Positions 3,941 through 53,322 of a stretch of 64,000 nt of DNA are shown here, piece after piece; the stretch's first letter is position 1, and every line of letters starts with the position of its first letter. The stretch lies in the UHGV virus genome UHGV-1378516, one strand, 5' to 3'. The translations under genes and the position numbers were made by a program. Source of the DNA: a virus. The notes beneath the pieces are model-generated. The model ran no database searches and was not told the DNA's origin. It saw only the letters and a list, made by a program, of their open reading frames with translations.

Positions 3941-4794
3941 TAAGAATTTCCTTCTTGTTGTGATTTATCTTTTCTGCCTTTGACAATTTGTGCAACCTCA
4001 GCCATAACTCCGTATGCACCACCTGCAATAGCTTCTTTACCAACGATGAAATAACCACTCTTATTAGACCTATCTACAGTCATATAATCATCGCTCTGTA
4101 AGTTTGCTGTTCTGTCAACCTTAAAGTAACCATCAATAACACCAGCATCTGCAAGGCTACCTACTAAGTTGGACTCCAGAGAGCCACCAGTGTTATTTGT
4201 TACCAGACCTCTGTTAGCATCAGTTACAAACCAGTTCTCTTTATCATCAACAATAGCAAGTGATGAATCAGCAACCTCTACAGGTGTCCAAGCGGTCCCA
4301 TTTAAAGTAACATCTCTTAAGATAACAGCGGAACCAGTGGTTGTTGCAGAAATCTTTGACAGTGTATATGCAGCATCAAGAACGCTTTTTCTAGTATTAA
4401 TACGGATAACGATACCACCAGTCTTAGGAGTAATATGCTCAAAAATCTGAGAGAAAGTTGCACCATACAATGTCATAATTGCTTTTTGCAAGAATGTTGG
4501 AGTAGTGTCAGAACGTCTTAAGAAGATTTGGATATAAAGCATAGCTCTATATGTTTCATCATCAGCACCTAAAGGTCTAGGAACTTTAATCAGTGAGCCA
4601 ATATTATCAAGTTGTTGACCTACTGACGTCCTAATATTTCTCTCTGTGTGCATCTGCCAGCAAACATCTTCTAAGGTTTGTAACTCATCAGTGATTGCTT
4701 TCAAGATGCTTGTATAGATAAACTTATCTTTAAACTGTGTTACAGTCCTTTCATCAAGTGTTTTATAATAAACACTATCAATCTTTTCAAACAT
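3940..4794 (-). CDS. putative baseplate protein (gpI/gp48-like by position)
   Basis: 284 aa, directly downstream of baseplate J-like gene; assignment by synteny only. Confidence 0.4.
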
Positions 4795-4796
4795 TA

Positions 4797-6265
4797 TTAC
4801 TCCTTAGTGATGGTATACTGGCTACTTTCCCAAACAGTATATTGGTCACCGTCAACAGTAATTCTTGCTGTAGTATATTGTCCGTCACTAGGTGGAACTG
4901 ATTGGCTGTTTGATAATGCTACTTTCACCTCATTAATCTCAATACCTTTGATTACGTCATAGATGTACCCATAAATTCTGTTAGGGATAACATCATTACC
5001 AACCTTAAGAGTTCTTCCGTAGGCGTTAATACCTTGCACAATACTATCTCTGATATCTTCTTCAGGGATTGTCAAACTTTCTTCGTCATATAATGAGTAA
5101 GACACCTTAACAAATGCGTATTTTGGTGTTGGTCTGCTAAAATAGATATTATGTGCCAGACCACCTAAATCATAGGCTGTACCAAAAATTGAGCCATAAG
5201 CCCTGATACCAGCAGGTTTTGTATCCCAGATTGCTTGAGCAACATTATCATTTTGACCACCAACTACAACAATCTTAAAAGACTTTGGTGGAAGACCTTC
5301 TGAGTTTGTCTCTTCAGTATCATTTTCAACACCTGAAGCATCTGAGACACCTTGAACTCTTTTAACAGCAGCCACAATTGCATCCAAAGTCCCTACACCA
5401 GTAACTGCTAAGGATTCTAAATATCTCTGTCTAAGTTCTGTGTCAGTTTCTTCGTTTCTACCAGTTGTTAAGTCATACCTGTTATAAATACTGTCAAGAC
5501 CATCAACAGTTGTCTCAATCTCAATAAGCGTACCAGCCAAAGCAGGGGTAGCACCAACCTCTTCAGCTACTACATCTGAAATAGTTGTAATCTTTGTAAA
5601 GGGCAGAAACGTTGTTGCAGTGACAACCATAGGGTTTGTTCTTGCAATGATATCACCTTCGTCTTTATAGACTCTTAATGCGGCTCCATCATTAATGACT
5701 TCTGCTTTTGCTACAATACCACCATTAATAGCTTCTGCTAATTTTGTTAGCAGCGTAGTGATTGTGTCTAATGAGGTTGGTTTATATGAGAAAATGACGT
5801 TATCAATAATAATAACATAATCTGCATCAGTTCGTAAAGAGTTAACTTCAAGTGTAGCTTCAACACAATATGATGGAGTAAGGGTAATGTTATTAACTGG
5901 ATAAAAGATGTTTCCGGCAGTACTTCTTAATCTTGTTGTTGAAGGAATGGTAGCACCAGTAGTTCCAGTAAACTCAACTTGACCTCTTGTTGCCTGAGCA
6001 ACATATCTGTATACAGCATTCAAAGCTGTAATATCATCAAGGTTAAATCCTTCAGCCTTGTCAATTGTCCCGCCGTCATAGATTTCTGATAGAATCTCAT
6101 GTGTATCTGCTAAAGACCTTGCAATTGAAGCTAGGAAGAGACCTAATTGACTGTCTTCAGAGACGTCAAGGTTTGGTGAAATATCTCTAAGAAGTCTTGA
6201 TTTGATATTATCAAAAATTTCCTGATATCTTAGAGTTTGTAATCCTGTTGTAGTTAATCCTGCCA

Positions 6266-39290: not shown

Positions 39291-40876
39291 ATAAAATTTT
39301 ATCGGTTGTTCCAACCTCTGGGTCACCATCATATGTGAATAAAATATCTATCCTTCTTAACAACCTTCTTAATCTTACTCTCTATATAGTTATATAGTAC
39401 TATATAGTATCTTAGTAACTATCTAGTGGTCTTAATAGCCCTCTGTATAACCCTTCTAAATAGCCCTCTAAACACTCTTCTAACAAGCCTTCTTAACAAC
39501 CTATACAATCACCTTAACCATCTCTCTATACCCTCTTAGAAGCCCCTATACACCTCTTAATCTCTAGGTTAGCTATGATACCCTCTATAGGTGTTCACTA
39601 GGTATTACTAAGCCTCTATATAGACTGTTTTAACAAACTTAACAGGAATATCTTCACAGACCTTATCTCACAAGGTCTAACACGGTACTAACAAGGTATC
39701 TTATAAGCCTGTTTCTACCTGTATTTTTAAAAGACTGTCTAGGTAATTATTCAGATTTTTAAAATTTTTATAAAATAGGACTATCAAGTCATTTTTTAGG
39801 GTCTTTGAAGGAACTCAAAAATATCTGTAGGAGATGTATATCTGCTTGGTAGCCCTTAACAGCTCCCTTACAAGTACTTTGCAAAATTTTAAAATATCCT
39901 TAACAATCTCTTAACAGTTCTCACATCTTCTTAACAACTCTTCAAAGGTCTTAACAGTTTCTTAACAGAACTAACAAGGGCTTAACAGTTTTCTAACAAG
40001 TGCTGAATAGGTTTTACAGAATCTTAACAGATGACTAACAAGAGCTAACAAGTTAATTTTAAAGAGTTATTTTGTTAGGGATTGGTAACAATACCAATTA
40101 GATAACTAACAAGTTCCTAATAAGTGTTTAATCTTTTTAACAAGCTATTAACATGGTCACTATCTCTTTTCTTATCGTTCCCTTTCTCTCTTAGTGATTC
40201 TCTAAACATACCTTTTAAAAACTCTCTATAGCTCCTTGTAAGCTCTTTTAAATCTCTTCCTAGTATCTACCCATCAACTGTATGGATAGCTCTTTATAGG
40301 GCTTTACAGGAGCTTTTAAGGCTATGTCAAAGACTCTTACAAGGCTTTTACGTGGTCTTAACAGAGATTTAACAAGGGGCTAACAAGTCTCTAACAAGAA
40401 TAACTATGTAGGGATTGTTAAGAAATTGTTAAGAAAATGTTAAGGGGGCTAGCATTTACGTAACTTTATAGCCTTTTTTACGTTACTTTGAAGTAACTTT
40501 ATAGCCCCTATAACATGCTTTTTAGTGACTATCAAGGGGATTGTTTAGTTATTCACAAGATACTAGCCAGCCTATAAACTTTCACCCTTATAAGATTCTT
40601 TTAAGGCTCTGGGAAGCTCTATAAAGGGCTTTTTAGAGTGGGTTAATATGATTGCTTAAGTTAGGTTGATAAGGCTGTTATAGAGCTTTATAGAGCGTTT
40701 TAGTGGTTGCCCTTCCCTTTCGGATTATGGGCTTGTATTTAAGTTGATTTGATAAAAGGTTATAGAGTAGACTATAGAGTTATTGCTTTTAAGGTATGGG
40801 ATAGATTCTATCGAATTAGTGGGATAGATTCTGGGAAGGAAAGGAAAGGGTTTTAATAGAGGCTATTACATAGACG
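39291..40876. repeat. ORF-free repeat-dense region (candidate origin/iteron or regulatory hub)
   Basis: No ORF of 60 aa or more on either strand; over 30 copies of YTAACAR heptamers with orientation flip near 40400; CTCTATA/TATATAG family; short direct repeats. Confidence 0.6.
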
Positions 40877-40899
40877 TAAAAAGCCCCATTTAAGGGGCT
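40877..40899 (-). terminator. rho-independent terminator ending minus-strand small-gene cluster
   Basis: Minus-sense AGCCCCU-uaaau-GGGGCU + U5. Confidence 0.6.
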
Positions 40900-40937
40900 G
40901 TAAAGGTATCTGGGGCTATTTAGCCCCGTTGCGTCGA

Positions 40938-41186
40938 TTAGTTATGACCGTCTTTATCGTAATAAAGAGAAATAATTTTATCGCCCCAATAGTGCCAATG
41001 TGTACCATCTTTCACCGCTTCTTGAATAGCTGCAATCCAAAAATCCGATTCAGGGTTATAATCCTTGACAATCTGGCTAACAAGGCTTTTCACCATGTCA
41101 AAAGCACTGTCAGTGCCTATAATGTCAAATTTAACGTCCAGAGAGTAGAAGCCAAATTCGTTAACAGTTGCGCGGATAGTAGCCAT
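40938..41186 (-). CDS. hypothetical small protein (cassette-driven)
   Basis: Track ORF 40938..41429 reads through the upstream cassette; real start is ATG at 41186 after SD AGGAGA. Confidence 0.55.
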   Translation of the reverse strand: MATIRATVNEFGFYSLDVKFDIIGTDSAFDMVKSLVSQIVKDYNPESDFWIAAIQEAVKDGTHWHYWGDKIISLYYDKDGHN

Positions 41187-41282
41187 TTTAGAATCTCCTA
41201 GTTTAAGGGTTTTATTTAGTGGGGTGGGGGTTATCTCCTCCCCGTTGATTAGTAATTTACTGCATATTGGCGTATGTTGCAA
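41187..41282 (-). promoter_or_regulatory. type-1 promoter/5' stem-loop cassette, copy 1 (variant stem)
   Basis: Minus strand TTGCAA-17-TAAATT, G-rich stem-loop, conserved ACTAAATAAA..CTAGGAGATTCTAAA, ATG. Confidence 0.6.
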
Positions 41283-41520
41283 GCCTTTTTTCGTTGTATT
41301 TTGTAAGAATCTCACAAGATAAAACATCGAACTTTGTAACCGCGTTGCCTTTGTCGAGGTCAAAAAAGCCAAACGCTTTACCATCTTTGAATCCGACAAC
41401 TTCGTAAGACTCTTTGATGATTTCATCATTGAACAAATCGCTTTCGATACGGTGGAATAATGCTACATCTTCTTTGTCGGTTGCAATTTGTAAAAGTGTG
41501 GTTAATTCTACGTTTTCCAT
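41257..41520 (-). CDS. hypothetical small protein (cassette-driven)
   Basis: 87 aa; ATG directly after cassette. Confidence 0.55.
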   Translation of the reverse strand: MENVELTTLLQIATDKEDVALFHRIESDLFNDEIIKESYEVVGFKDGKAFGFFDLDKGNAVTKFDVLSCEILTKYNEKRLATYANMQ

Positions 41521-41612
41521 CTTGATAACTCCAGTTTAGGACTTTATTTAGTGGGGAAGGTCATTCCCTCCCCGTTGATTGACAATTTACAGACTTTTGA
41601 TTGTTTCGTCAA
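41521..41612 (-). promoter_or_regulatory. type-1 promoter/5' stem-loop cassette, copy 2
   Basis: TTGACG-17-TAAATT; stem GGGGAGGG-aatga-CCTTCCCC (G-U wobble only in minus-sense RNA); SD; ATG 41520. Confidence 0.65.
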
Positions 41613-42117
41613 TATCTTTTTCAATATCTTTTAAAGTTTTTTCTAAGTTCTTGATATTGAAAGATAAACCTTCACCGAGAGTCTTAGAGTAACCGCTAGG
41701 ACGTAAATCATAAAGGCTAATTTGTTCTACATTAGAGAGGCTGACCATTTCACCGCTTACATCATAAGCTATTGATACAGTATTTTCAGGGGCTTTATAG
41801 AACTTGTTTAGTGACTTGATAGAACGTTCATAAGCCATTTTATAACCGTTTAAAAGGTTTTTAACATGGTTGTAAACGTTTTTACACTCATCCAAGTAAA
41901 TCCCTAAGAATAGCGGTAATAATTCTGCTACAGCTTGCATAAAGTGAGAGACTACAACGGTTGCAGCATTACGACGATGAACGTAATAAGCTCCGTTTTC
42001 TGATTTAGTGATGGTTGCAAAGTGTACCCCATTGCAGCGAAATTCGTAGGTATCTTTGACAGGCTTTGACATTACAGCACTTGAGCGGATGTAATTGATG
42101 GCTTTGAACTTGTTCAT
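41587..42117 (-). CDS. hypothetical protein (cassette-driven)
   Basis: Track ORF 41587..42210 trimmed to ATG at 42117 downstream of cassette SD. Confidence 0.55.
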   Translation of the reverse strand: MNKFKAINYIRSSAVMSKPVKDTYEFRCNGVHFATITKSENGAYYVHRRNAATVVVSHFMQAVAELLPLFLGIYLDECKNVYNHVKNLLNGYKMAYERSIKSLNKFYKAPENTVSIAYDVSGEMVSLSNVEQISLYDLRPSGYSKTLGEGLSFNIKNLEKTLKDIEKDIDETIKSL

Positions 42118-42210
42118 TTTAGAGTCTCCTAGTTTAAGGATTTTGTTTAGTGGGAAGGTCATTCCCTCCCCGTTGATTAGTAATTTACTTGCTTTGATAG
42201 CTGATTGCAA
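42118..42210 (-). promoter_or_regulatory. type-1 promoter/5' stem-loop cassette, copy 3
   Basis: TTGCAA-17-TAAATT; same stem-loop and SD; ATG 42117. Confidence 0.65.
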
Positions 42211-42338
42211 GCAATTTTTTAAGCTTATCTATAAAGAATCTTTTAAGTGAATCCTTTTAGATAAACCCCCTCGAACAAAGTTACCAATGTCAAGGGGTAT
42301 TGTCAACACTTTTTTAAAAGTTTTTTGTAAGTTATTGA

Positions 42339-42680
42339 TTAACTGATGAATATTTTTTCAGGTTTTACATAGCTGATACGCTGACTTTTTAGCAGGTCAT
42401 CCCAGATTAACGCGGCGATATGGGCATAACCGGATTCACGTAAAAGTTTCATTGTTTTACTTCTCGTTTCAAAACGGCTTGCGTAGTACTCACTATTTAA
42501 AACCGTTTTATTCCCTTCGTTATCTACATGGATAACCTGCATCACTTGAAAGGGGCTTGTGTCCTCGCCTTTATTCCACTGTTCAAAGTATTTTAGGCAC
42601 TGCATAGGTGACATCTTATCACTAACCTGAGTTGACCAAGATGAACCCTCTTTATCGGTAATTACGGTTACATAAGCCAT
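42339..42680 (-). CDS. hypothetical protein (cassette-driven)
   Basis: 113 aa. Confidence 0.55.
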   Translation of the reverse strand: MAYVTVITDKEGSSWSTQVSDKMSPMQCLKYFEQWNKGEDTSPFQVMQVIHVDNEGNKTVLNSEYYASRFETRSKTMKLLRESGYAHIAALIWDDLLKSQRISYVKPEKIFIS

Positions 42681-42775
42681 TTTTAGAATCTCCTAGTTTA
42701 AGGACTTTATTTAGTGGGGAAGGTCATTCCCTCCCCGTTGATGTGTAATTTAATCTATCTAAAAAACAGTGTCAA
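42681..42775 (-). promoter_or_regulatory. type-1 promoter/5' stem-loop cassette, copy 4
   Basis: TTGACA-17-TAAATT; same stem-loop and SD; ATG 42680. Confidence 0.65.
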
Positions 42776-42784
42776 CAAAATTTT

Positions 42785-43189
42785 TTAGAGTTCTGCATAA
42801 ATTGCGTCGCAGATGTCACGAAAGTCATGATTTGCCAAATTACGTTGTAACCAAGTGGCAAAGAAATCAGCGATTGCAAAATTTGCGTCATACTCGACAG
42901 ATAGCCACACTTTAACAGCAAATCTAAACATTTTCAAGTCTAACTCTTTATTCATTACCTTAGATTTGCCTAACATGTCGGCCATTTCATATTGTGCGCC
43001 ATCTAGTGTGATACCTGCTGCAACGTCAGCCAATGAACTTTTTACGTTTTCAACGTCTAAGATAACGCTTTGAATCTTTCCGATAATGTTGTGCAATGTT
43101 TCATCAGGCGCTGATGATGTCAGAACATTAATCCGGTTGACGGTCAAACGTGCTTTTAAGATTGATAATTCACGGTTATTAATGGTCAT
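42785..43189 (-). CDS. hypothetical protein (operator-cassette-driven)
   Basis: 134 aa. Confidence 0.55.
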   Translation of the reverse strand: MTINNRELSILKARLTVNRINVLTSSAPDETLHNIIGKIQSVILDVENVKSSLADVAAGITLDGAQYEMADMLGKSKVMNKELDLKMFRFAVKVWLSVEYDANFAIADFFATWLQRNLANHDFRDICDAIYAEL

Positions 43190-43277
43190 TTTAGAATCTC
43201 CAATTTAGGATTGAGTGGTAAAGCTCTTTATCTGGGGCTATCTTATCAGCTTGATAACCCCCTGTAAAGTACTTTAC
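43190..43277 (-). promoter_or_regulatory. type-2 cassette with palindromic operators, copy 1
   Basis: Perfect palindrome GTAAAGTACTTTAC overlapping -35-like TTTACA; second half-site pair TAAAG-ctc-TTTA downstream; SD; ATG 43189. Confidence 0.6.
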
Positions 43278-43546
43278 ACTAAATGCAGTTTTTTACCTTT
43301 TACTATAATGTAACTCGATGCACTATTGCTTTGCACATCCTGATAAATTCTGCGCAAACGGCCTTCGTAGTGTACTTTCCAACTGGTTGGAATCTTTTTA
43401 CCGTATCCCGTAGCAGTTTTTTGGAGTCCTGCGACTTGCCAATCTAAGATATGTTGTTCAGCTTGTAAGTCTTCAAAGTGCATGACACCATCTACATAGT
43501 GACGTAGTGTGACATTTAAAGTGCGACCGTTGTTAGTAGTATACAT
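43274..43546 (-). CDS. hypothetical protein (cassette-driven)
   Basis: 90 aa. Confidence 0.5.
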   Translation of the reverse strand: MYTTNNGRTLNVTLRHYVDGVMHFEDLQAEQHILDWQVAGLQKTATGYGKKIPTSWKVHYEGRLRRIYQDVQSNSASSYIIVKGKKLHLV

Positions 43547-43640
43547 TTTAGAATCTCCTAGTTTAAGGATTTTATTTAGTGGGGAAGGTCATTCCCTCCC
43601 CGTTGATGTGTAATTTAATCTATCTAAAAAACAGTGTCAA
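43547..43640 (-). promoter_or_regulatory. type-1 promoter/5' stem-loop cassette, copy 5
   Basis: Near-identical to copy 4; ATG 43546. Confidence 0.65.
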
Positions 43641-43969
43641 CAGTTTTGTTTTCGTTTGCTCAATTCTTGAACAATTACAGCGTAGTAGTCTTTTAAGTCA
43701 CTGATATTTAAAGCATTTATTAGTGAATTATAATCATCGATTAACTGAAAATCATCTTTGAAAATGTCGCTAATCTGATACGTTCTCGCTTTAAATCTGA
43801 AGCTCATTTCTAACCGCTTTATTTGCTCATCACTGAGACGCCCTAGAAAGCTTTCTACAAGGTTATTGCTAACCTGCTGTGTGATTGCCTTATTTGCTAG
43901 ATTATAGGCTTTATATGCCTTATATAGCGCGAAAATGGCAATGATTGCAGTGATACCAGTCATTAACAT
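43637..43969 (-). CDS. hypothetical membrane-anchored protein
   Basis: 110 aa; N-terminal hydrophobic segment. Confidence 0.5.
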   Translation of the reverse strand: MLMTGITAIIAIFALYKAYKAYNLANKAITQQVSNNLVESFLGRLSDEQIKRLEMSFRFKARTYQISDIFKDDFQLIDDYNSLINALNISDLKDYYAVIVQELSKRKQNC

Positions 43970-44259
43970 GGTGTTTCCTCTTTACGTGATACTTTGCCAT
44001 TTACAGTTATCTCATAGGATTCTAATAAATCGCTTTTAGACTTTACAGGGCTTTTAAAAGTATCATCATAGATATTGACTTGCAATACAGGTTTTTTATA
44101 TTCCCTGCAACTATTCCATAAGCAAATCACTACACGACGGCCTTTGATTTTTCCGTGCAACCATTCCATAACATCATGCCTATTCCTTGATGTTTCAATG
44201 AAATCAATTTTATTAAGTAACTTGCTTAGATTTTCACGGACTTTATTTGATAGTTTCAT
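43963..44259 (-). CDS. hypothetical protein (operator-cassette-driven)
   Basis: 98 aa. Confidence 0.5.
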   Translation of the reverse strand: MKLSNKVRENLSKLLNKIDFIETSRNRHDVMEWLHGKIKGRRVVICLWNSCREYKKPVLQVNIYDDTFKSPVKSKSDLLESYEITVNGKVSRKEETPC

Positions 44260-44348
44260 TTTAGAATCTCCAGTTTAGGATTTAGTTGTAAAGCTCTTTA
44301 TCTGGGGCTTAAGATATCAACTTTTAAACCCCCTGTAAAGTACTTTAT
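44260..44348 (-). promoter_or_regulatory. type-2 cassette with palindromic operators, copy 2
   Basis: GTAAAGTACTTTA palindrome plus TAAAGCTCTTTA element; ATG 44259. Confidence 0.6.
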
Positions 44349-44638
44349 TTGTTAATTTTCAGCTTTGCATAACCTCTCATTGTACGAATTGGAGATGTTA
44401 AGGCTACGCGTCTAATATATGCCTTTTTCGTGTATACATTTGTCTTCCCGATAGTGTTTACACATGTAAAAAGATTTATTGGTGAATTTTTTAACTTCAA
44501 CTGTTTATCAGCCTTCACACCCCATCTTACAGCAGATTGTTTTCCGTTGTCAACCACTTTCCCGCCTAACTTTTTCGCCATGATGCGAGCGTCATCGCGA
44601 GTTTTTGCAGTAATTACAACGTTTTTAATAATAGCCAT
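44345..44638 (-). CDS. hypothetical basic protein (operator-cassette-driven)
   Basis: Track ORF begins with TTG at 44653 inside cassette; trimmed to ATG at 44638 after SD GGAGAA. Confidence 0.5.
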   Translation of the reverse strand: MAIIKNVVITAKTRDDARIMAKKLGGKVVDNGKQSAVRWGVKADKQLKLKNSPINLFTCVNTIGKTNVYTKKAYIRRVALTSPIRTMRGYAKLKINK

Positions 44639-44728
44639 TTTTAAGTTCTCCAATTTAGGATTTAGTGGTAAAGCTCTTTATCTGGGGCTTACTTTATCGA
44701 ACTATAAGCCCCCTGTAAAGTACTTTAT
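44639..44728 (-). promoter_or_regulatory. type-2 cassette with palindromic operators, copy 3
   Basis: Same architecture; ATG 44638. Confidence 0.6.
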
Positions 44729-45105
44729 TTAATTTTGAAGATTGTTACATAACCATCACTCCCGATGATTTGTGATACTCCAGCCTTTTCTACTTGATAG
44801 CCCATATTTTCAAGATGATAAATAGCATCATCATAACCATATGCGCCACCCTGATAACGTCTCTTATCACATCTTATCAGGTTTTTTCCACGTCCAGCAA
44901 GTGCATGGAGAATGGTTTTTTCACTTGAAAGAGTGCCATCTAACATGGTTGCCGTGTAATGGTTGATTTTATTCCCGTTGATATCATACTTGAAATTGAA
45001 CGAGTGAACAACAATCACATTACCTTTGAAATTTTCATCAAGTGACTTCTCCAGTACGCTACGAAAGTTGTCTTTGTTGATGAATTTAGGCGCACGATAT
45101 TTCAT
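44725..45105 (-). CDS. hypothetical protein (first gene of cassette cluster)
   Basis: 126 aa. Confidence 0.55.
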   Translation of the reverse strand: MKYRAPKFINKDNFRSVLEKSLDENFKGNVIVVHSFNFKYDINGNKINHYTATMLDGTLSSEKTILHALAGRGKNLIRCDKRRYQGGAYGYDDAIYHLENMGYQVEKAGVSQIIGSDGYVTIFKIK

Positions 45106-45200
45106 TTTCTGAATCTCCTAGTTTAAGGACTTTATTTAGTGTGGAAGGTCATTCCCTCCCCGTTGATGCAAATACTAGATAACCACGTTCAAAGAGTCAA
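45106..45200 (-). promoter_or_regulatory. type-1 promoter/5' stem-loop cassette, copy 6
   Basis: TTGACT-17-TAGTAT; same stem-loop and SD; ATG 45105. Confidence 0.65.
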
Positions 45201-45319
45201 GAAAAATTTTAAAAATATTTTTGACAAAACTGTAATGAAACGGGCGCACACGACTACCACAAAACAGAACACAAATCAAGAATTATTTTTCAATCCGCTA
45301 CAAATTTTTCCCTTGACTT

Positions 45320-45352
45320 TTGGGGAGAGGGGGAGTAAGAGGGGGAGAGGGG
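45320..45352 (+). other. G-run tract with G-quadruplex potential
   Basis: GGGGAGAGGGGGAGTAAGAGGGGGAGAGGGG: four runs of four or more G in an AT-rich genome. Confidence 0.45.
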
Positions 45353-45379
45353 TTGGTCTGGCTCTCTATAAAAACCTAC

Positions 45380-45556
45380 CTGCACGATTCTAAAATGATT
45401 TTTCTTGCCCGACCTGAGCGGGGTCTGCACGTTTTGAAAATGAAAAATCTCTTTGGAGATTACCTGCACAGTTTGAAAATGAATTTCCTCTTTGGAGTTC
45501 AAAATTTCCTCTACAGATTTCTCTATAGAAATATACCTGCACAATTCTGAAATGAA
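45380..45556. repeat. four direct repeats of a 20-bp motif
   Basis: CTGCAC(G/A)NTT(C/T)T(A/G)AAAATGA at about 45380, 45425, 45464, 45537. Confidence 0.6.
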
Positions 45557-45628
45557 AAAGCCCTCCTTACCTGAAAAATTTACCAGATAAGAAAGGCTTA
45601 GTCTATTGTGAATATCCTACGAAGTTTC

Positions 45629-46414
45629 TTAGTTCTTTGCGTCTAAGAAGGTAACTTCTGGCGAAGAGAAAACTGTCTCAATATCCTCATCAGTTCTTGC
45701 ATAGATGTAAGTGTCTGCATCACTGCCAAATGTTACTGCAATCCTGTGATTGCTCTTCGACAGGTGGGTAACTAGAGCGTTACTTAGAGACATCTTTTCA
45801 ACCGGAGGGTTACTTTGATGTATCTTACCTTTTCTTCGTCTGAAGAGGGTAACTGCATTATCCGTGAACACAACTACACCTGCGAAGTATTCTGGTTCAC
45901 AGTAGTTCTTCCAACCTGAGCGTAACTTGTGGTACATCTCTCCTTCATAGACATATAGATAAACATCTACACTCTTCATTGCCTGATTGATGATAACTGT
46001 GACGGCTTGAGGGTCCAACCCACCGATACCTGCACCAATCATAGGTAAACCAACTTTCTTCAACTGATTAACTTCACAGTATCTGTTAAGCTGTTTCAAA
46101 GATGACTCTAAAGCACTGTATCGGGCATCTTTACCAGTCTTAAGCTGAGTGTAAAGGTTAGCTATACGGCCTTGTTTTACACGTGCTACAGAGAAATTAC
46201 CCAGTAAATTTTCACAGGGTTTGTGTCCTATACCACCTGCATATAGATAAACTTCTGTATCGGTCTCATATGCTTTTGGGTAAAGTTTAGAAATCTTGTC
46301 AGCGATACCTGCACCCATTAAATTCATACAGTTGCAACCGTGACCGATGATGTCAAACTTACCTTTATCAAATGCGGAAAAGATATCACCGTTGATAATT
46401 TTTACAATACCCAT
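45629..46414 (-). CDS. macro domain-containing protein (ADP-ribose binding/processing family) with C-terminal extension
   Basis: 261 aa; N-terminal ..IINGDIF..DIIGHGCNCMNLMGAGIA.. matches macro-domain core in register. Confidence 0.55.
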   Translation of the reverse strand: MGIVKIINGDIFSAFDKGKFDIIGHGCNCMNLMGAGIADKISKLYPKAYETDTEVYLYAGGIGHKPCENLLGNFSVARVKQGRIANLYTQLKTGKDARYSALESSLKQLNRYCEVNQLKKVGLPMIGAGIGGLDPQAVTVIINQAMKSVDVYLYVYEGEMYHKLRSGWKNYCEPEYFAGVVVFTDNAVTLFRRRKGKIHQSNPPVEKMSLSNALVTHLSKSNHRIAVTFGSDADTYIYARTDEDIETVFSSPEVTFLDAKN

Positions 46415-50876: not shown

Positions 50877-50955
50877 CTTATTACTCTCTCTTGTTAGTTA
50901 ATCAATCAATTTGTGAGGCTATTTTAAGGGGCTTTGAAGCCCCTTGTCAAACACT

Positions 50956-53322
50956 TTAATCGTAAATTGTAGTCCCTTCTGGAACACACTTCACATCAAA
51001 GCCTAAAAACTTACTCACTTCGATAGGTGATACTTTATTCCAATCTAAGTGTGAAAGCAAGAAGTTTTCTTGTTTTCTTTTTGAAAGATAGTTTGTCAGC
51101 TTAATAACCATGCGGTCACCAGCTTTCTTAATCTTTTTGTACAGTTTTGTGTCATTATCAAGGCATGACTTCAAATCCTGAAGAACACTGATAGTGTAAG
51201 TGTATGCAAACGGTGCAGCCACATACTGAATCTTACCGAACATTGCCTCAACAGCATCTTCATTCCCTTCTAAGAAGATTGTCTTAATAGTATCCCTTGA
51301 ATAACAATACCCACGAGAAATCTTCCTGTTATTAAACGTAAAGTTTCTGGCAATAATCCAACTGCTTGTAAGGTCAAGGACACCATTCATATAGATACGT
51401 GTCATATATCTGTTATGGTTAATCCAGTGAACATCAGTTAAGCTGTCATTCAAGAGTTTCTCATCTACTTCAATCCAATCTTCTGGTATCTTTTTCCAAT
51501 TTGCTTTTCGGAAAACATAGACTGTCTTACCTGTAACATTAGCAACTGACTTAGCTACATCTTCTGGAGATGAGCAAAAACATCTACCATCAACTGTGTC
51601 ACCAACTGCCTTAATGTAAAGTTGAGGTTCTTCAATTGTGTCTAAGTCTTCTGACACCTCTTTGTATGAAGCTACAGATTCTGCTGGAACAGCTTTCCAT
51701 AGTTTTACAACACCTCTCACAGCCTCTTTACGCTGATAATGATGCTCCTTATCAGACATTTTCACAATCTTTAACAAGCTTTTATCAAGTTTGTGTAGAT
51801 TGATTAAATCATCTAACTCTTTTTCAGTCGAGAATACAAACACAATACCATTGTATCTGTGGAACAGGCCTGACTCGTTAGCGTAGTCTCGACATGCACC
51901 ACGCAAGATTTGATTTCGTCCTACAGTCTTCTCAGTACCGTTTTTATTGCGACGGTCATTAATCACGAACAAAAACTGTTCAATTTGGCTTTTACGCATT
52001 GCACCAAAGATATTGAACATGCTTGCCTCTTGAGTGTAGGAAAGTGCTGTTGCACGAATCTTACTCTCTAAAGAGTTGAACTTGACATAAGCAACTGGGT
52101 CATAAAGATAATCTACTTTAGGGATATTGTTCCCGTTCCTATCAACCTTAATATTGCCTTTACCGTCACGTTCATAAATGACTGAGCCGTCTTCTGCGTA
52201 GATAATTCCACGACGAATGTTTAACAATTCTTCTTCCAGAGAATCAAGCTTAACGCCTCCCCACTCTAGCTTTGGACACACAGCATTAAACATCTCTCGT
52301 GAGTTCAAACGTAACTCTGCATAAGCCTGTGCAGCATCCATGAGTGTAGGTTGGCTATTAACTTTCTTGATAACATCCTTTGTAATTGCTTCAGTTATCT
52401 TTTTGGTAGCCTCGATGATAACATTTTTTGTCGTATCATTCATCTGCAATGCTTCACGAGAAGCTGCTATAGCAACTGAACCAATAGGCATGTAGATGTT
52501 TACAAGGTCTACGCTCCTACGGAAAAACTCTGGCAAGACTTTGAAGAAATCATCACCAAGTAACGCTTCCATGTTCACTGGATAGGCAATATTACCCATC
52601 ACCACATTAAACTCTGTCCTGTTACCACTAGAACGCCAGCTTTGCTTATGAATCATGGCATCATAAACACCTTCTTCACGGGCAATGACGTTCATATCTG
52701 CTAATACATCGTCGTACTCAATATTACTTTCTGGTTTTACAGTGAAGTATGAGTACACATTCCCAGCTTCTTCAAAGAACTTTGAGATACGGTGGTCAGC
52801 AACTGCCACACGTACAGCTAAACCATTAGGCTCTTTTGTTGGGTTAGTTGTCAGCTTAGTTACTTGAGGGATGCCATTCTCAAGATAAACAGAGTACTTA
52901 TTAACAACACCGTCAACATAGCTAGACACTGTGAATGACTGAGCAATTGCAAATGGGGATTTTGAGCCGATACCCATTGCACCAATGTAGTCATTAGAGT
53001 CATTCTTCGTAGAAGCCCCGTAGTTTAGGTACAAACTCATAACTTTATCATGAGTCAATCCAGTTCCAAAATCACGAACTTCAAAGTAAGGCTCAAAACG
53101 AGTAGGTAAATGCACATGGAACGGAATGTTCTCTTTTCCAGCTTCTTTCTGAGCATCTACTGCGTTACATGACAGTTCACGAATCACTGCCCTTTCTTTA
53201 AAGGTATATACACCAGAACTCAAAAGGCTGAACATCTCAGGTGTCATTGTAATCTGTGCTTGAGACGTCTCTAAAGAAGTTGAACTCTTAATCACTTCTG
53301 CGTGGTCATTTACCATGCGCAT
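50956..53322 (-). CDS. rIIA: rIIA-like protein with GHKL-type ATPase fold
   Basis: 788 aa; Bergerat-fold motifs ..ELSCNAVDA.. (N box), ..DFGTGL.. (G1), ..GAMGIGSKS.. (G2). Confidence 0.5.
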   Translation of the reverse strand: MRMVNDHAEVIKSSTSLETSQAQITMTPEMFSLLSSGVYTFKERAVIRELSCNAVDAQKEAGKENIPFHVHLPTRFEPYFEVRDFGTGLTHDKVMSLYLNYGASTKNDSNDYIGAMGIGSKSPFAIAQSFTVSSYVDGVVNKYSVYLENGIPQVTKLTTNPTKEPNGLAVRVAVADHRISKFFEEAGNVYSYFTVKPESNIEYDDVLADMNVIAREEGVYDAMIHKQSWRSSGNRTEFNVVMGNIAYPVNMEALLGDDFFKVLPEFFRRSVDLVNIYMPIGSVAIAASREALQMNDTTKNVIIEATKKITEAITKDVIKKVNSQPTLMDAAQAYAELRLNSREMFNAVCPKLEWGGVKLDSLEEELLNIRRGIIYAEDGSVIYERDGKGNIKVDRNGNNIPKVDYLYDPVAYVKFNSLESKIRATALSYTQEASMFNIFGAMRKSQIEQFLFVINDRRNKNGTEKTVGRNQILRGACRDYANESGLFHRYNGIVFVFSTEKELDDLINLHKLDKSLLKIVKMSDKEHHYQRKEAVRGVVKLWKAVPAESVASYKEVSEDLDTIEEPQLYIKAVGDTVDGRCFCSSPEDVAKSVANVTGKTVYVFRKANWKKIPEDWIEVDEKLLNDSLTDVHWINHNRYMTRIYMNGVLDLTSSWIIARNFTFNNRKISRGYCYSRDTIKTIFLEGNEDAVEAMFGKIQYVAAPFAYTYTISVLQDLKSCLDNDTKLYKKIKKAGDRMVIKLTNYLSKRKQENFLLSHLDWNKVSPIEVSKFLGFDVKCVPEGTTIYD

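What the first reader, a model, noticed from the sequence alone, without database searches (positions are those of the whole stretch)
40938..45200. Ten small ORFs each preceded by one of two conserved promoter cassettes
Every gene from 44725..45105 down to 40938..41186 is preceded by a ~70-95 bp conserved element. Six are type 1: sigma70-like promoter (-35 TTGACA/TTGCAA/TTGACG/TTGACT, 17 nt, -10 TAAATT or TAGTAT), then an 8-bp G-rich stem-loop GGGGAGGG-aatga-CCUUCCCC, a conserved spacer with SD AGGAGA, and the ATG. The stem has a G-U pair only in the minus-sense transcript (A-C mismatch on the other strand), which argues it works as RNA at the mRNA 5' end. The arrangement recalls promoter-plus-stem-loop (PeSL) cassettes reported in hyperplastic regions of T4-type phages; here nearly every gene carries its own unit. 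Several track ORFs are artefactually extended through the cassettes.
Basis: partly seen in the sequence, partly recalled or inferred. Interest (0 to 1): 0.75.

Follow-up and report, generated by a model that had tools for sequence, protein, structure and literature searches.

The report
Promoter-hairpin gene cassettes, Felix O1-like phage
A Felix O1-type phage keeps a row of small genes of unknown function as self-contained units, each with a predicted host-type promoter, a conserved hairpin and a shared ribosome-binding leader, and related phages have swapped, gained and lost these units by recombining within the shared sequences.

Summary
On the minus strand of 40938-45217, nine of ten small genes are preceded by one of two conserved cassettes. 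The tenth, g4, overlaps g3 and has none. The window is a Felix O1-like myovirus (Ounavirinae).

Type 1 (six copies) is a sigma70-like promoter with a 17-bp spacer, 'CAAC', a G-rich hairpin, an A-rich leader and a GGAG ribosome-binding site. It starts at the upstream stop codon and embeds TTTACA-17-TAnnnT.

Across 15 genomes (80 type-1 and 77 type-2 copies) the hexamers and spacing are conserved while the spacers vary. Both hairpins covary, and G.U pairs place the fold on the sense strand.

Gene content between cassettes differs among relatives, and chimeric cassettes locate crossovers inside the shared leader. This is the design reported for promoter-stem-loop (PeSL) cassettes of T4-type phages, here in another phage subfamily and without sequence similarity to them. 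Earlier work listed these sequences only as unexplained direct repeats.

Promoter activity, transcript starts and the hairpins' roles are inferred, not measured. I file it as a new member of a known kind, of moderate interest.

The parts
45106..45217 (-). Type-1 cassette before g1, the first of the array. -35 TTGACT 45200-45195; -10 TAGTAT 45177-45172; hairpin 45161-45141 (one mismatch); SD 45119-45114.
   Evidence: nhmmer E = 1e-25; fold z-score -2.2; picked up by the consensus scan
44725..45105 (-). g1, 126 aa, family F02, unknown function
44639..44727 (-). Type-2 cassette before g2. The long three-helix hairpin 44727-44669 begins with the g1 stop codon. -35 TTTACA 44719-44714; -10 TAAAGT 44696-44691; SD 44652-44647.
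   Evidence: (MFE -20.7 kcal/mol, z-score -4.75)
44345..44638 (-). g2, 97 aa, F03, unknown function
44260..44347 (-). Type-2 cassette before g3. Long hairpin 44347-44289; -35 44339-44334; -10 TATCTT 44316-44311 preceded by TG (extended -10); SD 44272-44267.
   Evidence: (z-score -3.11); chimeric relative to Sl26
43963..44259 (-). g3, 98 aa, F04, unknown function
43637..43969 (-). g4, 110 aa, F05. It has no cassette. Its ATG overlaps the end of g3 (inferred translational coupling). F04-F05 travel together in all eight Felixounavirus genomes and in KMM4; F05 was not called in Mordin, SUSP1 or mistaenkt.
43547..43657 (-). Type-1 cassette before g5. -35 TTGACA 43640-43635 contains the g4 stop codon TGA. 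-10 TAAATT 43617-43612; hairpin 43601-43581; SD 43559-43554.
   Evidence: (MFE -15.2 kcal/mol, z-score -3.9)
43274..43546 (-). g5, 90 aa, F06, unknown function
43190..43276 (-). Type-2 cassette before g6. Long hairpin 43276-43219 (the TTATC/GATAG stem variant); -35 43268-43263; -10 TAAGAT 43245-43240 preceded by TG; SD 43202-43197.
   Evidence: (z-score -3.93)
42785..43189 (-). g6, 134 aa, F07, unknown function
42681..42792 (-). Type-1 cassette before g7. -35 TTGACA 42775-42770; -10 TAAATT 42752-42747; hairpin 42736-42716; SD 42694-42689. It is a chimera: the left part matches the F07|F13 cassette of Pr103Blw and the right part matches its F14|F08 cassette.
42339..42680 (-). g7, 113 aa, F08, unknown function. 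Preceded by type 1 in some relatives and type 2 in others.
42118..42227 (-). Type-1 cassette before g8. -35 TTGCAA 42210-42205; -10 TAAATT 42187-42182; hairpin 42171-42152 (7 bp); SD 42130-42125.
41587..42117 (-). g8, 176 aa, F09, unknown function
41521..41629 (-). Type-1 cassette before g9. The promoter lies inside the 3' end of g8: -35 TTGACG 41612-41607, and -10 TAAATT 41589-41584 whose TAA is the g8 stop codon. Hairpin 41573-41553; SD TGGAGT 41533-41528.
41257..41520 (-). g9, 87 aa, F10, unknown function. Absent from Felix O1 and SP116.
41187..41299 (-). Type-1 cassette before g10. -35 TTGCAA 41282-41277; -10 TAAATT 41259-41254, whose TAA is the g9 stop codon. Degenerate hairpin 41243-41221; SD 41199-41194.
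   Evidence: (z-score -1.0)
40938..41186 (-). g10, 82 aa, F11, unknown function
45558..45599 (-). Intrinsic terminator at the upstream border of the array (equivalent to Felix O1 t13)
40882..40899 (-). Intrinsic terminator at the downstream border (equivalent to Felix O1 t23), preceded at 40905-40935 by a relic half-cassette
50877..50958 (-). Compact relative of type 2 at the rIIA/rIIB junction, outside the flagged interval: stop TAAAGTGT, -35 TTGACA 50950-50945, hairpin GGGGCTTCAAAGCCCC lying wholly between the hexamers, -10 TAAAAT 50926-50921

Best explanation
This is the variable block of small orphan genes (probably early genes) of a Felix O1-like myovirus. It lies between two intrinsic terminators and next to the probable genome end. 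It is organised as a row of plug-in expression modules. Each module ends in a shared, genus-specific translation leader (A-rich, GGAG, about 8 nt, ATG) and begins with one of two promoter-plus-hairpin designs.

Type 1. Host sigma70 RNA polymerase starts at about the 'CAAC' that follows the -10. The transcript therefore opens, after 2-4 free bases, with a stable G-rich stem-loop. I infer that this stem-loop protects the mRNA from 5'-end-dependent decay.

Type 2. A 59-nt, three-helix imperfect hairpin runs from the stop codon of the upstream gene to about +15 of the next transcript. The -35 (TTTACA) is the 5' strand of the middle helix. The -10 (TAnnnT, often with an upstream TG) sits in the loop and 3' strand of the top helix. 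Only RNA read through from the upstream gene contains both arms. I infer that the hairpin acts on that upstream RNA as a 3' end-forming, attenuating or double-strand-specific processing site, while the embedded promoter re-initiates transcription for the next gene.

Shuffling. The 5' half of each cassette is tied to the upstream gene, sometimes lying inside its coding sequence. The 3' half is shared by all cassettes. Homologous recombination in the shared part therefore deletes, inserts or reorders whole genes without breaking expression.

Shown here: the elements, their promoter-like conservation pattern, the covarying sense-strand structures, the restriction to one locus, and the chimeric junctions.

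Inferred: promoter activity, transcription start sites, early timing, and what the hairpins do.
For: Identity and distribution. The region is 90-96 % identical to Felix O1-like phages. The cores occur at about 1410 and 1447 places in 245 and 288 phage records, and all well-supported records are Ounavirinae. Within genomes they occur only in this locus (window; the whole Felix O1 genome).

Promoter signature.
- Type 1: spacer of 17 bp in 78 of 78 copies, 48 distinct spacers, hexamers 1.39 and 1.53 bits per position against 0.42 for the spacer, and 76 % A+T upstream.
- Type 2: TTTACA is invariant (75 of 75). The spacer is 17 bp in 69 copies and 18 bp in 6. Thirteen different TAnnnT hexamers occur, and T1, A2 and T6 are invariant although the surrounding loop and the stem register change. 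TG sits at -15/-14 in 40 of 75 copies.
- Compact variants use a full TTGACA.
- The consensus scan finds 7 of the 9 sites.

Structure.
- The type-2 three-helix fold is the minimum-free-energy structure in 58-61 of 61 unique cores, with a median of -22.5 kcal/mol. The window copies have z-scores of -3.1 to -4.75.
- 96.9 % of cells are paired, against 33-55 % in slid registers. The covariation score is 0.241 against 0.037 or less. Six pairs show compensatory changes, including GGGG/CCCC to GGTG/CACC in Erwinia phages. U.G occurs at two pairs in 37 and 49 of 59 sequences, so the sense strand is the one that folds.
- The type-1 hairpin is present in 78 of 78 copies. The stems are GGGGAGGG/CCUUCCCC, GGGGC/GCCCC, GGGC/GCCC, GGGA/UCCC and GGGAGG/CCUCCC. 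Cells paired are 84.7 % against 56-72 % slid, with 19 against 4 or fewer double changes.

No terminators inside. Intrinsic terminators occur only at the two borders.

Shuffling.
- Family F08 has seven different upstream neighbours in 13 genomes.
- F08, F02, F14, F21 and F24 are each preceded by type 1 in some genomes and type 2 in others.
- Modules F15, F13-F14-F17 and F10 are present or absent.
- Chimeric cassettes show crossovers in the shared segment.
- Cassette-to-cassette fusions occur in SP116 and Mordin.
- The two leader alleles occur behind both cassette types, and leaders carry genus-specific signatures.

Orphan genes. All ten proteins fall in PHROG families of unknown function and none has a Pfam domain.

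Timing. Felix O1 ORFs 16, 20, 21 and 22 of this block peak at 5 min.
Against: - No transcript 5' ends, reporter data or RNA-seq exist for any member; none was found in the searchable literature.
- The -10 hexamers are imperfect (TAAATT matches TATAAT at 4 of 6 positions), and two of the six type-1 sites fall below the scan threshold.
- In Felix O1 the genes behind identical 39-bp promoter repeats (ORF19 and ORF21) were scored as peaking at 25 min and 5 min respectively. Either timing is not set by the cassette alone or the end-point RT-PCR is too crude to tell.
- G.T wobbles are also tolerated in single-stranded DNA, so sense-strand folding does not strictly prove an RNA function.
- The type-1 hairpin alignment was anchored on each sequence's own predicted fold, which inflates pairing.
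- The 3' strand of the type-2 hairpin (AGATAAAGAGCTTTA) is more conserved than its pairing partner. Pairing alone therefore does not explain it.
- The window's g10 hairpin is barely better than shuffled sequence.
Confidence: 0.7

Rival explanations
1. The hairpins are transcription terminators or insulators, as proposed and partly shown for T4-type PeSLs. On this view each gene is a transcriptionally isolated unit, and the hairpins do not act as RNA stabilisers or processing sites. The promoter and shuffling parts of the best explanation are unchanged.
For: In RB49, a PeSL stem-loop placed between a promoter and lacZ reduced expression about as much as the rrnB T1 terminator. Here the hairpins sit in every intergenic space, are G+C-rich, and the type-2 hairpin starts right at the stop codon.
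Against: None of the nine hairpins is followed by a T-run, and the terminator scan finds only the two border terminators. The type-1 hairpin lies downstream of its own promoter, so an efficient terminator there would also stop its own transcript. The outer helices of type 2 are A.U-rich and interrupted, unlike intrinsic terminators.
Confidence: 0.3
2. The conserved sequences are DNA sites for a phage or host protein. They could be operators for shutting off the block (the palindromes TAAAGnnCTTTA flank the type-2 promoter). They could also be recombination sites folded in single-stranded DNA, like integron attC sites.
For: Each half of type 2 contains a near-palindromic 12-mer. AGATAAAGAGCTTTA at about +1 to +15 is nearly invariant from Escherichia phages to Erwinia phages and is more conserved than its pairing partner. 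Cassettes are clearly recombination points. The PeSL authors also speculated about a protein that binds the stem-loop.
Against: Compensatory changes link the left half of the upstream 12-mer to the right half of the downstream one (G-C to U-A at pair 5-50 in 7 unique sequences, U-A to A-U at pair 1-54 in 5). These changes break each palindrome's own symmetry. Wobble pairs exist on one strand only. Crossover points lie in the leader, not at a fixed site, which fits general homologous recombination. The proteins examined here (the ten array genes and six neighbours upstream) show no recombinase domain. The rest of the genome was not screened.
Confidence: 0.1
3. Type 2 is not a plain sigma70 promoter. 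It would be a phage-specific (middle-type, activator-dependent) promoter, with (A/G)CTTTA acting like the T4 MotA box TGCTTTA.
For: Many copies read GTGCTTTACA, which contains the T4 MotA-box core (own knowledge of the T4 consensus). Some genes behind type-2 cassettes were scored as peaking at 25 min in Felix O1 (ORF17).
Against: The box ends 19 bp before the -10, against about 12 bp in T4 middle promoters (own knowledge). About half the copies read GTACTTTA instead. [quoted passage not shown] Compact relatives carry a canonical TTGACA at that position. ORFs 16 and 20, which also follow type-2 cassettes, peak at 5 min.
Confidence: 0.07
4. The repeats are selfish or neutral intergenic repeat elements (REP/MITE-like) that spread by recombination, and expression does not depend on them.
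For: There are many near-identical copies per genome, they are homogenised within genera, and they have palindromic structure.
Against: Every copy is in one orientation and in exact register with an upstream stop codon and a downstream SD-ATG. Functional positions (hexamers, 17-bp spacing, pairing) are conserved while other positions drift. Copies are absent from the rest of the genome. The design persists from Escherichia phages to Erwinia phages although the sequence has diverged.
Confidence: 0.03

Closest known systems
PeSL (promoter-early stem-loop) cassettes of T4-type phages RB49/phi1, PST/T4 and nt-1/KVP40 (Arbiol et al. 2010, PMC2839356; Comeau et al. 2014, PMC4122927)
   Same: Both are composite sigma70-like promoter plus GGGG...CCCC stem-loop plus SD, and both fill the space from stop codon to ATG. 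Both have an A/T-rich stretch upstream of the -35. The stem-loop can lie between or over the hexamers (as in type 2 and the compact form) or after the -10 (type 1). Both cluster in a variable region next to small orphan genes. Both carry indels and replacements between relatives with crossovers inside the cassettes.
   Different: The host lineage differs (Ounavirinae, not T4-like). There is no detectable sequence similarity: blastn with both cores hits only Ounavirinae and two evidently mis-assigned records. Type 2 is a much longer three-helix hairpin that swallows the stop codon, both promoter hexamers and the start region, and its pairing is supported by covariation. The type-1 hairpin is predicted to lie inside the transcript. 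All cassettes sit in one array rather than several regions. No reporter, terminator or mini-circle data exist here.
RNase III processing hairpins between early genes of phage T7 (own knowledge)
   Same: Both are intercistronic, roughly 20-bp imperfect hairpins with internal loops between small early genes transcribed by host polymerase. Cleavage in T7 leaves a protective 3' hairpin on the upstream mRNA.
   Different: T7 sites do not contain promoters. Cleavage at the type-2 hairpin is untested. No sequence relationship is known.
5'-terminal stem-loop mRNA stabilisers such as the ompA 5' UTR hairpin (Emory, Bouvet and Belasco 1992; own knowledge)
   Same: In both, a stable hairpin lies within a few unpaired bases of the 5' end, followed by an unstructured leader and an SD. 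The type-1 hairpin is predicted to start 2-4 nt from the transcription start.
   Different: The start site and half-life have not been measured here. The hairpin is also present in read-through RNA.
Host-takeover modules next to genome ends, e.g. the Bacillus phage SPO1 terminal-repeat module and the T5 pre-early region (own knowledge)
   Same: Both are dense rows of small genes of unknown function, with many strong host-type promoters, next to a terminal repeat. In Pr103Blw the terminal repeat lies about 450 bp beyond the last gene of the array.
   Different: There is no homology. A takeover function for these proteins is untested. The SPO1 units have proper terminators.
Integron gene cassettes with attC sites (own knowledge; the comparison is also drawn in PMC2839356)
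   Same: Both are arrays of small ORFs separated by imperfect hairpin-forming repeats that act as exchange points.
   Different: Integron cassettes usually lack their own promoter and need an IntI integrase acting on folded single-stranded attC. Here each unit has a promoter, no integrase was seen in the 16 proteins examined, and crossover points are spread over the shared leader.

Membership tests
PeSL-type composite promoter/stem-loop cassettes (definition from PMC2839356) | sigma70-like early promoter (-35, about 17 bp, -10) | tested here: met
   Type 1: 17-bp spacer in 78 of 78 copies, with hexamers conserved over variable spacers. Type 2: TTTACA-17/18-TAnnnT in 75 of 75 copies, with TG extension in 40. 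The scan tool recovers 7 of 9. This is sequence evidence only.
PeSL-type composite promoter/stem-loop cassettes (definition from PMC2839356) | Adjacent or overlapping stable stem-loop, typically poly-G/poly-C, in one of several positions relative to the promoter | tested here: met
   A hairpin is present in all copies. Covariation is shown, and fold z-scores are -2.2 to -4.75 for eight of the nine window copies, with g10 at -1.0. Positions: after the -10 (type 1), spanning -35 to +15 (type 2), and exactly between the hexamers (compact form).
PeSL-type composite promoter/stem-loop cassettes (definition from PMC2839356) | [quoted passage not shown] | tested here: met
   76 % A+T in the 14 nt upstream of the type-1 -35. 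Stop codons lie inside or at the edge of the cassettes, and SD plus ATG at the 3' end.
PeSL-type composite promoter/stem-loop cassettes (definition from PMC2839356) | Concentrated in a hyperplastic region next to orphan genes | tested here: met
   Found only in this locus, in the window and in the whole Felix O1 genome. All ten proteins are of unknown function. Gene content varies among 15 genomes.
PeSL-type composite promoter/stem-loop cassettes (definition from PMC2839356) | Recombination between cassettes produces indels and replacements (comparative evidence) | tested here: met
   Chimeric cassettes; the same gene behind different cassette types; cassette-cassette fusions.
PeSL-type composite promoter/stem-loop cassettes (definition from PMC2839356) | Measured promoter strength, terminator activity and circular excision products | not testable with these tools
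   These need reporter fusions, 5'/3' end mapping and inverse PCR on infected cells.
PeSL-type composite promoter/stem-loop cassettes (definition from PMC2839356) | Sequence homology to the T4-type PeSLs (common descent) | tested here: not met
   blastn (word size 11) with both cores against 50,697 phage records hits only Ounavirinae and two evidently mis-assigned records. It therefore works like a PeSL but is not a sequence relative.
Intrinsic (Rho-independent) terminators | G+C-rich hairpin immediately followed by a T-run | tested here: not met
   No cassette hairpin passes; only 45558-45599 and 40882-40899 do. The KhF2 record labels the type-1 hairpin as a terminator on the opposite strand, where no T-run follows either.
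Known RNA families (Rfam 15) | Match to a curated covariance model | tested here: not met
   0 matches at E <= 1 over 40600-45700, both strands.
T4 MotA-dependent middle promoters | MotA box about 12 bp upstream of the -10, and MotA/AsiA encoded by the phage | tested here: not met
   The TGCTTTA-like box ends 19 bp before the -10 and is TACTTTA in about half the copies. The Felix O1 authors report no T4-type proteins that modify polymerase specificity. The MotA consensus and spacing are from my own knowledge.

The most novel reading that the evidence does not exclude
The type-2 element may be a true dual-use sequence. The same 59 nt would be read as double-stranded DNA (a promoter) and as RNA (a long processing or 3'-end hairpin). 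Read-through from the upstream gene and re-initiation for the downstream gene would then be mechanically coupled. For example, cleavage of read-through RNA by a double-strand-specific RNase would produce about the same 5' end as the embedded promoter, so each gene would yield a uniform monocistronic mRNA whichever polymerase made it. Alternatively, the near-invariant AGATAAAGAGCTTTA at the start of every such transcript may be the handle for a still unknown phage factor that switches the whole block off together.
Probability: 0.15. Interest if true: 0.7.

Novelty: new member of a known kind. Interest (0 to 1): 0.45.

Why it matters
Felix O1 is a classic Salmonella typing and biocontrol phage, and its relatives are common in therapy collections. 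Its 2010 genome paper states that how its transcription is organised and timed is unknown, and it lists these sequences only as unexplained direct repeats.

Reading them as promoter-hairpin-leader modules has four consequences:
1. It gives testable start sites for about ten genes per genome.
2. It explains why automatic gene calls in this block are often too long, or label the hairpins as terminators on the wrong strand.
3. It explains how this block gains and loses orphan genes, which are candidates for host-takeover or anti-defence functions.
4. It shows that the PeSL design, so far tied to T4-type phages, arose or persists in an unrelated sequence form in another myovirus subfamily. That points to a general solution for plug-in gene expression in lytic phages.

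The modules are also ready-made, compact expression parts for phage engineering.

Tried and rejected
- Leader peptide. The type-1 hairpin contains ATG ACC TTC CCC ACT AAA TAA (six codens and a stop). The ATG is lost in the GATAAC and GAAA loop variants, so this was rejected.
- RegB-type shut-off. Every cassette uses GGAG, and some relatives annotate an 'endoribonuclease' near the array. The window's homologue falls in a PHROG of unknown function with only a sub-threshold SLT hit, so there is no support.
- Intrinsic terminators at the hairpins. None has a T-run.
- MotA-box reading of type 2. The spacing is wrong.
- Known RNA families. There are no Rfam hits.
- Function of the ten proteins. Pfam gave nothing and PHROGs gave only families of unknown function.
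- Counting pairs directly on the MAFFT alignment of type-2 cores (A1). MAFFT put the 1-nt gap of the TTATC/GATAG variants on one arm only, so I re-anchored both arms at the stem base and cut out the loop centre (A2) before counting.
- Type-1 pair count. This had to be anchored on each sequence's own predicted fold, so it leans towards the structure. I treat it as supporting evidence only.
- Literature. Searches for transcriptomes or start-site maps of Felixounavirus, and for any link between PeSLs and Felix O1-like phages, found nothing. The wV8 paper does not mention the repeats that its GenBank record annotates. The rV5 paper was irrelevant. PhageMaP on Bas63 mentions only interspersed small hypothetical genes of varying essentiality.
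- One alignment used slightly wrong coordinates for one Sl26 junction. The informative part, loop identity and the 3' join, is still readable.

Full report
WHAT IS THERE

Read on the minus strand, window 40938-45217 holds ten intact small ORFs of 82-176 aa. Nine are preceded by a conserved 87-112-nt element.

Six genes (g1, g5, g7, g8, g9, g10) have 'type 1'. It consists of an A/T-rich stretch, a -35 (TTGACT, TTGACA, TTGCAA or TTGACG), exactly 17 nt, and a -10 (TAAATT five times, TAGTAT once). Then come 10 nt ending in ATCAAC, the hairpin GGGGAGGG-AAUGA-CCUUCCCC, ACTAAATAAAGTCCTTAAACT, AGGAGA, 8-9 nt and ATG.

Three genes (g2, g3, g6) have 'type 2': TAAAGTACTTTACAGGGGG...GCCCCAGATAAAGAGCTTTAC, followed by a leader closely related to that of type 1.

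g4 has no element, and its ATG overlaps the end of g3.

Chance is excluded. A core pattern matched 4 times against 0.00 expected. nhmmer profiles find the nine copies at E = 1e-23 to 1e-31 and nothing comparable elsewhere in the 64-kb window.

WHERE IT COMES FROM

The region is 90-96 % identical to Felix O1-like myoviruses (Ounavirinae). In Felix O1 it corresponds to genes 14-23. These lie between terminators t13 and t23, downstream of rIIA/rIIB and a macro-domain phosphatase gene.

blastn with the two cores finds about 1410 and 1447 places in 245 and 288 phage records. All are Ounavirinae except two evidently mis-assigned records. Type 2 reaches the Erwinia phiEa21-4 group.

In the complete Felix O1 genome the profiles hit only this locus. 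One compact relative sits at the rIIA/rIIB junction, and the window has the same element at 50877-50958.

WHAT WAS KNOWN

The Felix O1 genome paper lists a 57-bp and a 39-bp 'direct repeat' between genes 15/16, 19/20, 18/19 and 20/21. These are parts of type 2 and type 1. The paper does not count them among its promoters and says temporal regulation is unknown.

The wV8 GenBank record tags them DR_1 to DR_9, but the wV8 paper is silent on them. The Mordin record tags a 14-bp repeat before each SD. The KhF2 record calls the type-1 hairpin a terminator on the wrong strand.

I found no paper linking these phages to PeSL-type cassettes, and no start-site map.

PROMOTER SIGNATURE

I collected 80 type-1 and 77 type-2 copies from the window and 14 relatives in four genera.

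Type 1:
- 78 copies parse, and the spacer is 17 bp in all 78, with 48 different spacer sequences.
- The -35 is TTGCAA (26), TTGACA (21), TTGACG (12), TTGACT (9), TAGACA (5), TTGATT (3) or TTGACC (2).
- The -10 is TAAATT (41), TAAAGT (17), TAGTAT (8), TAATAT (7) or another TAnnnT.
- Information content is 1.39 and 1.53 bits per position in the hexamers against 0.42 in the spacer.
- The 14 nt upstream are 76 % A+T.

Type 2:
- TTTACA is invariant.
- The spacer is 17 bp in 69 copies and 18 bp in 6.
- Thirteen different TAnnnT hexamers occur.
- TG precedes the -10 in 40 of 75 copies.
- The T, A and T of the -10 stay at a fixed distance from TTTACA even in variants whose stem register shifts by one base. 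Pairing alone does not explain that constraint.
- Compact relatives have a full TTGACA at the same place.

A generic consensus scan recovers all three type-2 sites and four of six type-1 sites.

All of this is sequence evidence. Activity is inferred.

STRUCTURES

Type 2 folds into a three-helix hairpin of about 20 bp. The outer helix (TAAAG/CTTTA) starts with the upstream stop codon. The middle helix (CUUUA/UAAAG) has the -35 as its 5' strand. A 3x3 internal loop separates it from a 9-13-bp G+C-rich top helix, which carries the -10 in its loop and 3' strand.

This is the minimum-free-energy fold in 58-61 of 61 unique cores, with a median of -22.5 kcal/mol. The window copies fold at -17.8 to -20.7 kcal/mol, with z-scores of -3.1 to -4.75.

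I counted pairs on an alignment with both arms anchored at the stem base:
- 96.9 % of cells pair, against 33-55 % in slid registers and 87.8 % in shuffles.
- The covariation score is 0.241, against 0.037 or less.
- Six pairs show compensatory changes, including G-C to U-A in all Erwinia-phage copies and G-C to U-A in the outer helix.
- U.G occurs at two pairs in 37 and 49 of 59 sequences. These would be C.A mismatches on the other strand, so the sense strand is the one that folds.

Type 1 has a hairpin starting 0-1 nt after CAAC in 78 of 78 copies, at -5 to -17 kcal/mol. It uses at least five stem sequences, and Mooglevirus copies have a GAAA tetraloop. On a fold-anchored alignment, which leans towards the structure, 84.7 % of cells pair against 56-72 % slid, with 19 against 4 or fewer double changes.

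None of the hairpins is followed by a T-run, and intrinsic terminators occur only at the two borders. No Rfam family matches.

WHAT THE GEOMETRY IMPLIES (INFERENCE)

With a start 7-9 nt after the -10, type-1 transcripts begin at about (C)AAC. They therefore carry the hairpin 2-4 nt from the 5' end, followed by an A-rich leader. That is the layout of known 5' stabilisers (own knowledge).

Type-2 transcripts would begin at the A of CCCC-A-GAUAAAG, inside the 3' arm. Only RNA coming from the upstream gene can form the whole hairpin. The hairpin must therefore act on that upstream RNA. It could form 3' ends, attenuate transcription, or serve as a double-strand-specific processing site like the T7 early RNase III sites (own knowledge).

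SHUFFLING

I clustered the ORFs of the 15 arrays. They share a backbone order but differ by whole modules. F15 is present in 7 of 13 enterobacterial arrays (and in both Erwinia phages), F13-F14-F17 in 5, and F10 is missing in 2. F19, F20, F21 and F24 change place.

F08 (the window's g7) has seven different upstream neighbours. F08, F02, F14, F21 and F24 are each preceded by type 1 in some genomes and type 2 in others.

Three-way alignments locate the crossovers:
- The window's cassette before g7 equals the Pr103Blw F07|F13 cassette on the left and its F14|F08 cassette on the right. The switch lies inside the shared hairpin-leader segment.
- The window's cassette before g3 has the loop of the Sl26 F03|F15 cassette joined to the 3' part of its F15|F04 cassette.

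SP116 and Mordin carry cassette-to-cassette fusions left by deletions.

The 5' halves are physically tied to the upstream gene. The g4 stop lies inside the -35 of the next cassette. The g8 and g9 stops are the TAA of the next -10. The type-2 outer helix starts with the stop codon.

The 3' leaders are shared. Two leader alleles occur behind both cassette types, and each genus has its own leader signature.

GENES AND TIMING

All ten proteins fall in PHROG families of unknown function and have no Pfam domain.

In Felix O1, end-point RT-PCR scored ORFs 16, 20, 21 and 22 as peaking at 5 min, and 14, 17, 19 and 23 at 25 min. This shows early expression of part of the block. But ORF19 and ORF21 sit behind identical promoter repeats, so the data do not fit a simple picture.

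In Pr103Blw the terminal repeat lies about 450 bp beyond the last gene, so the array abuts the genome end.

COMPARISON AND VERDICT

Every feature that Arbiol et al. used to define PeSLs and that can be tested on sequence is met. These are a sigma70-like promoter, a G/C stem-loop in variable position, an A/T-rich upstream region, a stop-to-ATG span with an SD, clustering next to orphan genes in a plastic region, and recombination between cassettes.

There is no sequence similarity to T4-type phages. This works like a PeSL system but is not a sequence relative of it.

The distinctive points are the long, covariation-supported type-2 hairpin that contains the whole promoter, the predicted 5'-terminal position of the type-1 hairpin, and the single-array arrangement.

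I rate it a new member of a known kind. Promoter activity, start sites and hairpin function remain to be measured.

Noticed in passing
window 45380-45570: Four ~34-nt direct repeats (minus-strand reading TCATTTTnnAAnnGTGCAG), spaced 39-73 nt, lie between the border terminator and the first cassette. A polypyrimidine run follows at about 45325-45355. The same motif occurs four times in the equivalent leader of Erwinia phage phiEa21-4 (L008, about 4600-4800), so it is conserved across the subfamily. It could be a regulator-binding array or an origin-like array.
   Followed up: partly
window 39300-40880: About 1.6 kb without ORFs lies downstream of g10. It is packed with short repeats of the CTTGTTAG/CTGTTAAG and CTATAAAG/CTATAGAG kinds. 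In Pr103Blw the 581-bp terminal repeat lies just beyond the array, so the physical genome ends (and perhaps packaging or replication signals) probably lie here.
   Followed up: no
window 40905-40935: A relic half-cassette, CAACGGGGCTAAATAGCCCCAGATACCTTTAC, mixes the type-1 'CAAC + hairpin' with the type-2 'AGATA..CTTTAC' flank. It sits right after the g10 stop and before the true terminator.
   Followed up: no
window 42230-42335: Between g7 and the g8 cassette lies an extra TTGACA-17-TAACTT promoter-like site overlapping a hairpin of reversed polarity (ACCCC...GGGGGU). Mooglevirus genomes have a 46-aa ORF (F25) at this position, so this may be a decayed module.
   Followed up: no
window 50877-50958: A compact cassette lies at the rIIA/rIIB junction: stop TAAAGTGT, TTGACA, hairpin GGGGCTTCAAAGCCCC exactly between the hexamers, then TAAAAT. 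The same form occurs in Felix O1 (L001:2271-2386) and KMM4 (L011:11259-11362).
   Followed up: partly
window, every cassette leader (e.g. 43568-43555): The SD is predicted to pair weakly with an upstream UCC(U) across a constant UAAACU loop. The two alleles CCT..GGAG (108 copies) and CCTT..AGGAG (38) never occur in mixed form (0 of 146). Erwinia phages have CCUU-AUA-AAGG instead. This could be a mild SD-masking hairpin, or simply tight linkage of two nearby insertions.
   Followed up: partly
window 43640-43635, 41589-41584, 41259-41254: Stop codons are built into promoter elements. The g4 TGA lies inside the -35 TTGACA, and the g8 and g9 TAA are the first three bases of the -10 TAAATT. For g9 and g10 the -35 and spacer are coding sequence of the upstream gene.
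   Followed up: yes
GenBank GU169904.1 (Staphylococcus phage SA1) and MG065664.1 (Campylobacter phage A132): Both records contain Felix O1-type cassettes at 92-93 % identity. SA1 has seven places. This looks like contamination or a mis-assigned host rather than real distribution.
   Followed up: no
L003 (KhF2), L006 (wV8), L005 (Pr103Blw), L010 (mistaenkt): Several public annotations of this block look wrong. KhF2 and wV8 tag type-1 hairpins as Rho-independent terminators on the strand opposite the genes. Pr103Blw labels small array ORFs 'tail sheath monomer' and 'prohead assembly scaffold protein'. mistaenkt labels the Felix ORF3 homologue 'endoribonuclease', which Pfam and PHROGs do not support for the window's copy.
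   Followed up: partly
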